This document shows, piece after piece, positions 6,001-9,000 of a DNA stretch of 12,758 nt. Location: the UHGV virus genome UHGV-0134735; one strand, given 5' to 3'. The position numbers were made by a program. This DNA is from a virus. The first letter of the stretch is position 1; every line of letters begins with the position of its first letter.

Positions 6001-9000
6001 ATAAAGTACACATCGTACTATTTAGCCATCAGCAGGACGCACTACTCACCAGGGCGGTGAATATACAACGATTCAAATATGAATCTACGGCGCTGACAAA
6101 GCGCAATAACCAAAGTGAACTTTGGGGTGTGGTGAAGCCAGCTAGTCACTGGCAAGTGCTTACCTACTGTTGAGCGGTGAAGCGCTCCCAACGCTAGCAA
6201 TAGCGTGGACGAGATGGGGAGCCGCGGGCGATAAGGCCGCCATAACGCGCACGTTGTCGCATGGAAAAATCACTGGGGTGCCGGTTATACCCCTCCGAAT
6301 GAGACTCAACAAGCTGGAGCTAGACTACCAGCCACCACACCACCAAAGTTCATCAGGAGGTCTATATGACACGCAGAACTCAGTTCAAAGGCAATTCACG
6401 TTCTCGTCGTCGTGAGCGTTTAAAGGCAAAGGCATTAGCTAACGGCGTACTGGCCCGCGAAGAAGCAATAAGTTCAGAAGTATTACACCGCCCTACTCTA
6501 AGCAGAGCGCAGATTCAGGCTAAAGGTACTCACGAAACGCCTGAGCGCATAGAAGACGCTAAGCCAATTAAGTTCATGGCACAGGACGTGATCTGGCAAC
6601 AGAAAGAATACAGACGCAATCTGGAGCGAGCGGCCATTGTGTACGCGAATGAGTTTGGACATAAGCAACCAGAAACTGGTGTATGTCTTCCAAACGTAGC
6701 CATTTACGCGGCAGGCTACCGGAAATCAAAACAACTGACAGCAAGATGACTTGTGTTGGTCGCCAGAAAATGAAATTAGGCAGTAAGCTACTGTATGAGG
6801 GGTGAGATATGCATAAATGTCAGTTCTGTGGATACATGTTTGAATCAAATGAAATGCAACGTATTTCGTTAAACCTTATCGGTAGGCCATACAACATTTG
6901 CCTAGGATGTAGCGAGAAATACAAAAACAAAGACATGTGGGACGACAATAAAAACGATATCGACTGGAATAAAGTGCCATGTATTGATGATAGTTAAAAA
7001 TAATTATGCCGCATAGTCGGCCTTCTTTTGGCATAAACAACAGAATAAACACTGCACTGTGTATTCATTCCAACGAGTGAATACACGGAGCAATGTCGCT
7101 CGTAACTAAACAGGAGCCGACTTGTTCTGATTATTGGAAATCTTCTTTGCCCTCCAGTGTGAGGGCCTTTTTATATGCATACCAATAACGCTTCACCAGA
7201 GGCATTTTCGTTATGCAATCAAACAGAAGGAGCATCCTATGCAACAGTTCGCTATTGCAGGGGCGGCATCGGTTCGCCCTTTCAACCCGATTTTATCGGT
7301 ACAGCATTCACGAAAAAATATTTTAACCGGAGCAGACTTTAAACAACCAAGAATGAAAAGTTTGCTCGAAAAGCTTTGGGATATTTTGAAACAACAAGGC
7401 CGTCCATGAGTTTTACAGATAACTGGTCAGACGAAGAATTCATTCGTCAGATGAAAGAATTAATCGGTAACGAAGGAGATATTCATGTCACTTGCAACCA
7501 CAGTGAAGGAGAGCAAGTTACAGAGGCGCATGTACACGCAGAAAGCTCTCTGGTATCGACATAATGGCGACCGCGAAGGAATGCGGGTATGCCTTAACTT
7601 GTCCCGAGTCGAAGTATTAAATCAGCGTTATTTCCTTGGGCCGTGTCCATTCTGAGAACAATCATATGAGCAAAGAATTTTACGCAAGACTGGCAGCTAT
7701 TCAGGAGAATCTGAACGCGCCAAAGAATCAGTACAACTCATTCGGTAAATATAAATACAGAAGCTGCGAAGACATTCTTGAAGGCGTTAAGCCGTTACTG
7801 AATGGCCTGTTTTTATCAATCAGCGATGAAGTTGTGTTGATTGGTGATCGGTATTACGTGAAAGCCACGGCAACTATTACCGATGGCGAAAACAGTCATA
7901 CGGCAACCGCCCTTGCACGAGAGGAAGAAAGCAAGAAAGGAATGGATTCTGCACAAGTTACTGGAGCTACAAGCTCTTATGCACGCAAGTATTGCCTCAA
8001 TGGTTTGTTCGGCATTGATGATGCGAAAGATGCAGATACAGACGAGCATAAACATCAGCAGAACGCAGCAGCAAAGCAATCAAAACCATCACCTACACCT
8101 GAACAGGTTCTAAAAGCATTCACTGACGCAGCATTGCAGAAAAACACCGTGGAAGAGCTTAAACAGGCGTTCGCCAAAGCGTGGAAGATGCTCGAAGGCA
8201 CACCGGAGCAGCAAAAAGCGCAGGACGTTTACAACATCAGACGAGACGAATTAGAAGGGGCGGCCGCTTAATGGCACATTCGATTACTGTAAGACTAAAC
8301 AAGCCCGCAAGAGAGTTTCAGGCCGGGGAAAATATCGGATTCAACATCCGTGCTGGAGTTCAGTATTACGATCGCCAGACAAAAAAGAAGGAATGGACAA
8401 ACTACAGCGCCGTTGTATTTGCCAAGCCGGGAGCGCAAGCGGATTACTACCGTAGTGTTCTTGTTGAAGGTGGCATTGTTGAAATTACCGGAGAAAACAT
8501 CAGGGTTGATATTTATCAGGGGCAAAATGGTCAATCAATCACTCTTGAATTACTGAATGCAAAGATTGGATTTGCAGCTTCAGGAAATGGCCCGCAGCAG
8601 CAAAGTAGTAACCAGCAGAACACTCCTGTATACGACGATTCCATCCCATTCTGATTTAGAAAAATAAGGATTTAATTATGCCAGCGCCTCTGTATGGTGC
8701 GGACGACGCGCGCCGCTGTTCCGGCAATTCCGTATCGGAGGTGCTGGATAAATTCAGAAAAAACTACGACCTGATAATGTCGCTACCGCAGGAAACGAAA
8801 GAGGAAAAGGAATTTCGCCATTGTATATGGCTTGCAGAGAAAGAAGAACGCGAGCGAATTTACCAGACATCAATCCGACCATTCCGCAAAGCCACATATA
8901 CCCACTTCCCTGAAATTGACCCGCGTCTGCGTAATTATCGATCACGCTATGGCGCTATCAGTAATGACTGAGGAATTTACCATGAGAGGACTTGCATACA

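What the first reader, a model, noticed from the sequence alone, without database searches (positions are those of the whole stretch)
8271..8654. Phage SSB-like protein ending in a host-SSB tail mimic (YDDSIPF), coupled to Erf
The ORF starts on the erf stop codon (TAATG) and has an OB-fold-like core, a Q/G-rich linker and a C-terminus resembling the E. coli SSB tip (DDDIPF) that recruits host repair and replication proteins. A phage copy could redirect SSB-interacting host proteins or support Erf-mediated annealing.
Basis: partly seen in the sequence, partly recalled or inferred. Interest (0 to 1): 0.5.

Follow-up and report, generated by a model that had tools for sequence, protein, structure and literature searches.

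The report
Phage SSB gene next to erf
This is a real prophage gene for a small, very divergent single-stranded-DNA-binding protein (the counterpart of phage HK97 gp40) that keeps the bacterial SSB "IPF" tail and sits between the Erf annealing gene and abc2; it is an ordinary, already predicted part of lambdoid recombination modules, though no one has tested it at the bench.

Summary
The ORF at 8271-8654 encodes 127 aa, and its ATG shares one base with the erf stop (TAATG). The protein has three parts:
- a confidently predicted OB fold (aa 1-103)
- a disordered Q/N/S-rich linker
- the tip YDDSIPF

Pfam and NCBIfam do not recognise it. These results place it with bacterial-type SSBs:
- PHROG 44 (SSB), E = 1.5e-26
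- profile-profile alignment to E. coli SSB: 89% probability, with all four ssDNA-stacking aromatic positions matched

It is 94% identical to HK97 gp40, which a 2025 Genome Research paper already named "SSB-1b" from its predicted fold. The gene is in 579 of 5,426 complete E. coli genomes, annotated "hypothetical protein" in every record listed.

Relatives lie directly downstream of Erf, Sak4-like or RecT annealase genes. Canonical SSB genes fill the same slot in other Erf modules.

Most likely role: coat resected ssDNA and pass it to Erf, and possibly to host partners, through the tail. This is what was shown for the unrelated HK620 SSB. The function here is inferred, not shown.

Small new points:
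- The tail is conserved across the family.
- The HK97 reference copy lacks it because of a one-base insertion.
- The Erf C-terminus and this gene swap as one cassette relative to P22.

Low interest; already known in kind.

The parts
7406..7564 (+). Small ORF at the position of P22 arf (counterpart of HK97 gp42/42.1)
   Evidence: PHROG 2123 ('recombinase'), E = 2.7e-40, matching from residue 11 of the TTG-started ORF at 7376. HK97 has its counterpart just upstream of erf.
7666..8271 (+). erf, an Erf-family single-strand annealing protein (201 aa)
   Evidence: Pfam PF04404 E = 2.1e-44 and PHROG 155 E = 8.6e-58. It is 75% identical to P22 Erf overall: 89% over the first ~155 residues but 31% over the last ~45.
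8254..8273 (+). Junction between erf and the SSB gene: GAAGGGG (8254-8260), erf TAA (8269-8271) and the SSB ATG (8271-8273), forming TAATG
   Evidence: Read from the sequence. The same junction occurs in all 82 close loci, in Serratia Erf-SSB loci, in Leminorella Sak4-SSB loci and at P22 erf-abc1.
8271..8579 (+). OB-fold core of the SSB-like protein (aa 1-103)
   Evidence: - Model pLDDT is mostly 92-96 per ten-residue block, dipping to 84 in one block.
- Foldseek top 50 PDB hits are SSB or PriB, best E = 3e-5.
- hhalign against E. coli SSB gives 89% probability.
- Y32, W42, F50 and Y82 align with E. coli W40, W54, F60 and W88.
8580..8630 (+). Disordered Q/N/S-rich linker (aa 104-120)
   Evidence: pLDDT is below 50 for residues 107-121. 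Length and sequence vary widely among homologues.
8631..8654 (+). C-terminal tip YDDSIPF (aa 121-127) plus the TGA stop
   Evidence: Translation. The pattern [F/Y/W]-D-D-x-[I/P]-P-F is conserved in the close subfamily. 76 of 82 close loci keep it.
8678..8971 (+). abc2, which modifies host RecBCD
   Evidence: Pfam PF11043 E = 5.7e-64 and PHROG 656 E = 1.2e-54. It starts 23 nt after the SSB stop. No terminator-like site was found on the + strand between the two genes.

Best explanation
The ORF is an expressed early-left-operon gene of a lambdoid prophage. It encodes a small, highly divergent bacterial-type SSB with an OB fold, a short disordered linker and an acidic tip ending in IPF. It is the counterpart of HK97 gp40 ('SSB-1b').

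Proposed mechanism:
1. The gene is translated together with Erf, through the overlapping stop and start.
2. The protein coats the single-stranded DNA exposed at phage DNA ends by Abc2-modified RecBCD, and at replication forks.
3. Its exposed tip recruits or loads Erf onto that DNA. Because the tip keeps the I-P-F end and two of the aspartates, it could also engage host proteins that read the host SSB tail.

Shown here: the gene, the fold, the aligned aromatic residues, the conserved tip and the conserved position next to annealase genes.

Inferred: ssDNA binding, oligomeric state, contact with Erf and any effect on host partners.
For: **Real gene**
- It is 94% identical to HK97 gp40.
- It is present in 579 of 5,426 complete E. 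coli genomes and 419 phage records.
- 82 of 82 close loci keep the order erf, this gene, abc2.

**SSB-type fold**
- The AF2 model has pLDDT 85.
- Foldseek PDB top hits are all SSB or PriB.
- BFVD hits are phage SSBs.

**Homology signal**
- PHROG 44 (SSB), E = 1.5e-26.
- hhalign against E. coli SSB gives 89% probability and E = 2e-6. Y32, W42, F50 and Y82 fall on W40, W54, F60 and W88.
- Y32 and F50 are invariant, W42 is at least 90% conserved, and position 82 is Y or F in every aligned member.

**Tail**
- The acidic-IPF tip is conserved while the linker varies.

**Link to annealing**
- Family members lie directly after Erf in E. coli, Serratia and Vibrio phage K71.
- One lies after a Sak4-like AAA_24 gene in Leminorella.
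- One lies in a RecT-exonuclease-SSB run in Vibrio phage 2E1.
- Among 13 Enterobacterales-like Erf loci (one genome per species), 4 have this type immediately downstream and 4 have a canonical SSB at the same 0-1 nt junction.

**Precedent**
- In HK620 the gene in the same slot encodes an SSB. Its last six residues (NDYPPF) are needed to stimulate Sak4 annealing and recombineering (PMC5928155).
- Annealase-SSB tail dependence and the benefit of cognate phage SSBs are reported in PMC12054835.
- The Abc2-RecBCD-Erf model comes from PMC9836394.
Against: - Curated sequence models do not recognise the protein. Pfam gives no hit. TIGR00621 scores 13 bits against a cut-off of 54.
- A family profile finds no SSB in the PDB by sequence.
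- Only 4 of 35 family members touch PF00436, best E = 0.0056.
- The residue aligned to E. coli H55, which matters for the tetramer, is an invariant Thr, so the oligomeric state is unknown.
- No experiment exists for any member of this family.
- The HK97 reference copy lacks the tip, so the tip may not be essential for phage growth in the laboratory.
- No similarity was found between the Erf C-terminus and the SSB-tail-binding C-terminal domain of lambda Beta.
Confidence: 0.72

Rival explanations
1. Host-interactome decoy. The main role is not to help Erf. Instead the protein presents an SSB-like tip that competes with host SSB for ExoI, RecQ, RecJ, PriA, RecO or the chi subunit. That would protect phage ssDNA ends or divert host repair and replication-restart proteins.
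For: - The tip keeps the terminal I-P-F and two aspartates of the host tail.
- The tip is conserved across the family.
- One relative carries the exact host tail MDFDDDIPF.
- The gene sits next to abc2, another host-hijacking gene.
Against: - Within Enterobacterales, where my background knowledge is that the host tail is essentially fixed as DFDDDIPF, the phage tips differ from it systematically: S for D, and PPF in the Serratia clade. A pure competitor would not be expected to do that.
- The gene tracks annealase genes of three unrelated families. That fits a recombination partner better than a general decoy.
- A full ssDNA-binding OB core with conserved aromatic residues is not needed for a decoy.
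Confidence: 0.15
2. Replication SSB. The protein mainly supports phage DNA replication (theta or rolling-circle) together with the phage O-like initiator and primase-helicase. Its position beside erf reflects only operon history.
For: - SSBs serve replication in general.
- The prophage carries its own replication initiator and a Toprim/DnaB-like protein.
- A Leminorella relative lies in an operon that also holds a DNA polymerase III theta-like gene.
Against: - The gene is in the pL recombination module, not the pR replication operon.
- It is absent from many lambdoid phages that replicate normally: 177 of 246 panel phages have no SSB gene (PMC12315714).
- Its stop/start junction with annealase genes recurs across genera.
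Confidence: 0.1
3. An OB-fold protein that does not act as an SSB, for example a PriB-like adaptor, a nuclease inhibitor or an anti-defence factor, whose tail resemblance is incidental.
For: - PriB and tRNA-synthetase OB domains also appear among the structural hits.
- Curated SSB models fail to recognise the protein.
Against: - All four ssDNA-stacking aromatic positions of E. coli SSB are matched and conserved.
- The three-part SSB architecture (OB core, disordered linker, acidic IPF tip) is complete.
- Canonical SSBs occupy the same slot in sister Erf modules.
Confidence: 0.03

Closest known systems
HK97 gp40, named 'SSB-1b' (Genome Res 2025, PMC12315714); also carried by HK022, HK106, HK542, HK544, mEp213 and Stx1a phages
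   Same: - 94% identical to HK97 gp40 and 98% identical to the HK106 copy.
- Same position between erf and abc2.
- The paper assigns it to SSBs from an AlphaFold 3 fold.
   Different: The HK97 reference sequence has one extra A (TCCAATCCC against TCCATCCC). It therefore ends ...YDDSNPILI and lacks the IPF tip that this window and most relatives keep. In the passages I read, the paper does not mention a tail.
E. coli SSB and the bacterial SSB family (Pfam PF00436, TIGR00621)
   Same: - OB fold with the same order of strands, helix and beta hairpin.
- Aromatic residues at the W40, W54, F60 and W88 positions.
- A disordered linker and an acidic tip ending in IPF.
   Different: - At most about 19% identity in structural alignments.
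- It scores below every curated model threshold.
- The linker is about 17 aa, against roughly 55 aa in E. coli SSB (from the E. coli sequence used).
- The tip is YDDSIPF, not FDDDIPF.
- E. coli H55 is replaced by an invariant Thr.
- HMMER sees it as an isolated family of only 216 clusters at 50% identity among 1.84 billion representatives.
HK620 SSB (HkaK, 'SSB-2'), the only lambdoid recombination-module SSB tested experimentally (PMC5928155)
   Same: - Same slot: directly after the annealase gene and before abc2, with overlapping stop and start.
- An aromatic/acidic tip ending in PF (NDYPPF).
- It binds ssDNA and stimulates its annealase in a tail-dependent way. This is the working model borrowed here.
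   Different: - No detectable sequence relationship (hhalign probability 0.3%).
- Its partner is Sak4 (RecA-like), not Erf.
P22 Abc1
   Same: It occupies the identical slot after erf, with the same one-base stop/start overlap.
   Different: - It is unrelated in sequence (hhalign probability 0.3%).
- Its function is unknown (PMC9836394).
- Relative to P22, the window replaces the Erf C-terminal ~48 codons and abc1 together.

Membership tests
Bacterial-type SSB family (Pfam PF00436 / TIGR00621) | Match to the curated family HMM above its threshold | tested here: not met
   No Pfam hit at E <= 0.1. TIGR00621 gives E = 0.085 and 13.2 bits against a cut-off of 53.95. Only 4 of 35 relatives touch PF00436, best E = 0.0056.
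Bacterial-type SSB family (Pfam PF00436 / TIGR00621) | OB fold with a helix between strands 3 and 4 and an extended beta hairpin | tested here: met
Bacterial-type SSB family (Pfam PF00436 / TIGR00621) | Aromatic ssDNA-stacking residues at the positions of E. coli W40, W54, F60 and W88 | tested here: met
   hhalign (89% probability) pairs Y32, W42, F50 and Y82 with them. They are invariant or nearly so in the family. This rests on one profile alignment, not on a structure with DNA.
Bacterial-type SSB family (Pfam PF00436 / TIGR00621) | Disordered linker followed by an acidic C-terminal tip ending in (I/L/P)-P-F | tested here: met
   pLDDT is below 50 for residues 107-121. The tip is YDDSIPF. 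It is conserved in 76 of 82 close loci and 68 of 120 family representatives.
Bacterial-type SSB family (Pfam PF00436 / TIGR00621) | Homo-oligomer (tetramer or dimer) that binds ssDNA with high affinity | not testable with these tools
   No multimer prediction or biochemistry was available. The residue aligned to E. coli H55 is Thr.
PHROG 44 (phage single-strand DNA binding proteins) | Significant match to the PHROG profile | tested here: met
   E = 1.5e-26, 94.8 bits, residues 2-127.
HK97 gp40 / 'SSB-1b' group of lambdoid recombination modules | Close sequence identity to HK97 gp40 and position between the annealase gene and abc2 | tested here: met
   94% identity. Same gene order as HK97. 82 of 82 close loci are syntenic.
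Annealase-cognate phage SSB (functional class, as for HK620 SSB) | Tail-dependent stimulation of the neighbouring annealase | not testable with these tools
   Only context supports it: adjacency to Erf, Sak4-like and RecT genes and the HK620 precedent.

The most novel reading that the evidence does not exclude
The phage SSB tip and the Erf C-terminal domain may form a matched, private pair.

Relative to P22, the last ~48 codons of erf and the downstream gene are exchanged as one cassette. All six Erf proteins followed by this SSB type share a C-terminal 'KA..(V/I)Y' motif that P22 Erf lacks.

If the altered tip (YDDSIPF rather than the host FDDDIPF) is read preferentially by that Erf domain, the phage would channel its own SSB-coated ssDNA to Erf and away from host SSB clients.
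Probability: 0.15. Interest if true: 0.5.

Novelty: already known. Interest (0 to 1): 0.2.

Why it matters
**Practical value**
- The gene is common. It is in about 11% of complete E. coli genomes, and every record listed labels it 'hypothetical protein'.
- The evidence here justifies annotating it as a phage SSB.
- It could be tried as a cognate partner to improve Erf-based recombineering, as has worked for other annealase-SSB pairs (PMC12054835, PMC5928155).

**Conceptual value**
- It adds little. Phage SSBs in recombination modules, and the role of SSB tails in recruiting annealases, are established ideas.
- This protein family was assigned to SSBs in 2025 (PMC12315714).

Tried and rejected
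- **Direct sequence searches against solved structures.** A search with the protein and one with a 35-member profile found no SSB. The link to SSB needed profile-profile and fold comparison.
- **P22 Abc1, which sits in the same slot, as a degenerate relative.** hhalign probability was 0.3%. Rejected.
- **HK620 SSB as a relative.** hhalign probability was 0.3%. Rejected.
- **Erf C-terminus resembling the SSB-tail-binding C-terminal domain of lambda Beta.** hhalign probability was 0.2%. No support.
- **Co-variation of the Erf C-terminus with the downstream gene.** I compared 14 Erf proteins.
  - The C-terminus is variable everywhere: 29-45% identity to the window copy in most, 18-85% across the set.
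  - The only pattern is a motif split ('KA..VY' against 'KC..V').
  - The sample is small and the sequences are not independent, so the result is suggestive at best.
- **Tip sequence tracking the annealase type.** Vibrio phages K71 (Erf) and 2E1 (RecT) have nearly identical OB cores but different tips, DWDEDIPF and GWDDEPPF. Serratia Erf-linked copies also end in PPF. No clean rule emerged.
- **First pass of my downstream-gene classifier.** It mislabelled two canonical SSBs (L095, L098) as gp40-type, because the family HMM includes the Q-rich linker and the tip. I corrected this by reading the N-termini.
- **Supplementary tables of PMC12315714.** They are not held as text, so I could not check which annealase types the authors pair with SSB-1b.
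- **The longer GTG-started ORF from 8181.** Rejected as the start.

Full report
**Setting**

The window is a lambdoid prophage arm.
- On the minus strand lie a Toprim/DnaB-like replication protein (1420-3300), an O-like initiator (3408-4268) and a CII-like gene (4440-4739).
- A CI-type repressor reads rightward (about 5208-5867).
- The early-left operon follows on the plus strand:
  - N (6366-6749)
  - a small ORF at the arf position (7406-7564)
  - erf (7666-8271)
  - the ORF in question (8271-8654)
  - abc2 (8678-8971)
  - a DUF2737 gene (8982-9146)
  - Ead/Ea22-like and DUF551 genes
  - xis (11442-11660)
  - a lambda-type int (11638-12708)

**Checking the observation**

- The ORF translates to 127 residues ending ...TPVYDDSIPF, followed by TGA.
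- The erf TAA (8269-8271) and the ATG (8271-8273) share one base, giving TAATG. A GAAGGGG stretch lies 10 nt upstream.
- A longer GTG-started reading from 8181 exists mechanically. Homologues in the family alignment begin at or within one residue of the MAHSIT start.
- No terminator-like site lies on the plus strand between erf and abc2.

The linker is rich in Q, N and S rather than Q and G.

**What the protein is**

Curated models are blind to it:
- Pfam gives nothing.
- TIGR00621 scores 13 bits against a cut-off of 54.
- Sequence searches of the PDB, with the single protein or a 35-member profile, find no SSB.

Three independent lines place it among bacterial-type SSBs.

1. *Sequence profiles.* PHROG 44 (single-strand DNA binding protein) matches at E = 1.5e-26.
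2. *Profile-profile comparison.* The family alignment matches E. coli SSB with 89% probability and E = 2e-6 over residues 32-94.
   - The alignment puts Y32, W42, F50 and Y82 on the four ssDNA-stacking aromatics W40, W54, F60 and W88.
   - Y32 and F50 are invariant, W42 is at least 90% conserved, and position 82 is Y or F in every aligned member.
3. *Predicted fold.* An AlphaFold2 model (pLDDT 85, pTM 0.71) shows strands at 3-8, 14-18, 21-34 and 39-51, a helix at 55-63, strands at 69-74, 76-84, 87-95 and 98-103, and then a disordered tail.
   - All of the top 50 Foldseek hits in the PDB are SSB or PriB. The best E-value is 3e-5 and TM-scores are 0.4-0.55.
   - The viral structure library returns phage SSBs.

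The scores are moderate. The protein is best described as a far outlier of the SSB superfamily, not a member of the Pfam family as curated.

HMMER sees the family as an island. Only 216 clusters at 50% identity, out of 1.84 billion representatives, match at E <= 0.001.

**The tail**

- In the close Enterobacterales subfamily the tip is [F/Y/W]-D-D-x-[I/P]-P-F.
- More distant members have linkers that run to well over 50 residues, yet mostly still end in D-x-IPF.
- Of 120 full-length family representatives, 68 end in P-[F/Y/W].
- One Leminorella member carries the exact E. coli tail MDFDDDIPF.

The tip is therefore a conserved family trait. It is the same trait that defines bacterial SSBs. Retention from an SSB ancestor is a simpler reading than mimicry.

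**Already described**

- The protein is 94% identical to HK97 gp40.
- The locus matches HK542, HK106, HK97, HK022, Sf101 and Stx1a phages at 95-98% DNA identity.
- GenBank and RefSeq call HK97 gp40 simply 'Gp40'.
- PGAP labels the E. coli copies 'hypothetical protein' in every record listed. The gene is in 579 of 5,426 complete genomes.
- A 2025 Genome Research survey of lambdoid recombination modules states that HK97 gp40 has a predicted structure similar to bacterial SSBs. It names the protein SSB-1b and says these proteins have not been studied experimentally (PMC12315714).

One detail may explain why the tail has gone unremarked. The HK97 reference has one extra A near the 3' end (TCCAATCCC against TCCATCCC). 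Its product therefore ends YDDSNPILI instead of YDDSIPF. Only 3 of 82 close loci share this, while 76 keep the tip.

**Link to annealing**

- All 82 close loci keep erf, this gene and abc2 with the same junction.
- More distant family members lie:
  - directly after Erf in Serratia, again sharing one base;
  - after Erf in Vibrio phage K71, within a DnaQ-like exonuclease / Erf / SSB run;
  - directly after a Sak4-like AAA_24 gene in Leminorella;
  - after RecT and an exonuclease in Vibrio phage 2E1.
- I also scanned one genome per species for Erf relatives and looked at the 13 Enterobacterales-like loci returned.
  - Four have this SSB type immediately downstream.
  - Four have a canonical SSB at the same 0-1 nt junction.
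  - The rest have other genes or are incomplete (two mislabelled rows corrected by eye).

The slot after the annealase gene is thus an 'SSB slot', filled by interchangeable SSB lineages.

HK620 has the same layout (small ORF, Sak4, SSB, abc2). Its SSB is unrelated in sequence. It binds ssDNA and stimulates Sak4 annealing and recombineering, and the effect depends on its last six residues NDYPPF (PMC5928155). Work on recombineering likewise reports that annealases depend on SSB C-terminal tails and work better with cognate phage SSBs (PMC12054835).

**Most likely mechanism**

1. Abc2 alters RecBCD so that it produces ssDNA for the phage recombinase. This model comes from PMC9836394.
2. The phage SSB, made together with Erf, coats that ssDNA.
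3. Its exposed tip recruits Erf.
4. Erf anneals complementary strands.

Steps 2 to 4 are inferred for this protein.

The tip keeps the terminal I-P-F and two aspartates, so contact with host SSB clients is plausible. It is untested.

The short linker (about 17 residues, against roughly 55 in E. coli SSB) and the Thr at the position of E. coli H55 leave cooperativity and oligomeric state open.

**A side observation on Erf**

- Erf here is 89% identical to P22 Erf over the first ~155 residues but only 31% over the last ~45.
- DNA similarity to P22 stops at 8126 and resumes at 8668. The Erf C-terminus and the downstream gene (this SSB here, abc1 in P22) therefore differ as one block.
- Six of six Erf proteins followed by this SSB type share a 'KA..(V/I)Y' motif near the C-terminus. 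P22 Erf and several others have 'KC..V' instead.

This fits a partner-specific Erf C-terminal domain. Simple linkage explains it equally well. The sample is small, and two canonical-SSB-linked Erfs fall in each class.

The Erf C-terminus shows no similarity to the C-terminal domain of lambda Beta.

**Verdict**

It rediscovers a common, previously predicted component of lambdoid recombination modules.

The new elements are modest:
- family-wide conservation of the SSB-type tip;
- the frameshifted tip in the HK97 reference;
- the association with three annealase families;
- the Erf C-terminus plus SSB cassette boundary.

Interest is low (0.2). The most novel reading still open, a private Erf-SSB tip pairing, has perhaps a 15% chance.

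Noticed in passing
L001 (HK97) about 4235-4257, compared with window 8640-8654: The HK97 reference gp40 has one extra A (TCCAATCCC against TCCATCCC). It therefore ends YDDSNPILI* rather than YDDSIPF*. Only 3 of 82 close loci share this. It is either a sequencing error or a natural tail-less variant.
   Followed up: partly
window 8127-8667, compared with P22 (L083 26924-27400): DNA similarity to P22 ends at 8126, inside erf at about codon 154, and resumes at 8668, just before abc2. The Erf C-terminal ~48 codons and the downstream gene are therefore exchanged as one mosaic block.
   Followed up: partly
Erf C-termini: window 8115-8268, L084, L090, L092-L101: Two classes of Erf C-terminus appear. 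'KA..(V/I)Y' is in all six Erfs followed by a gp40-type SSB and in two of four followed by a canonical SSB. 'KC..V' is in P22 (Abc1) and four others. The sample is small and not phylogenetically corrected.
   Followed up: partly
window 387-559 and 10149-10321: A 173-nt inverted repeat, 79% complementary. It corresponds to a shared C-terminal protein segment (…PHAHLIWIQAGHAPDDYWDDVAVS…) in ORF 374-751 (-) and the Ead/Ea22-like ORF 9894-10355 (+). These are paralogous domains at opposite ends of the prophage arm.
   Followed up: no
P0127, P0156, P0158 (family representatives): Some family members carry the D-x-IPF motif internally, followed by a further conserved-looking extension 'AP[IV]GL…' of about 15 residues. 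This may be a second partner-binding motif.
   Followed up: no
L087 (Leminorella) 3138-4417 and 7013-7243: A gp40-type SSB with the exact E. coli tail MDFDDDIPF follows a Sak4-like AAA_24 gene with a one-base overlap. The same operon carries a DNA polymerase III theta-like gene.
   Followed up: no
L090 3501-3992 and L091 3486-3962 (Vibrio phages K71 and 2E1): The OB cores are nearly identical, but the linkers and tips differ (…DWDEDIPF against …GWDDEPPF). The modules also use different annealases, Erf against RecT plus exonuclease.
   Followed up: no
window 8271-8654, in E. coli RefSeq genomes: The gene is present in 579 of 5,426 complete E. coli genomes. Every record listed labels it 'hypothetical protein' beside 'ERF family protein'. 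This is an annotation gap that the present evidence could close.
   Followed up: yes
window 1420-3300 (-): A 626-aa replication protein combines a Toprim-like domain with a DnaB/AAA_25-like helicase domain, downstream of an O-like initiator. This differs from the lambda P-type and the P22 gene 12-type arrangements. I did not examine it further.
   Followed up: no
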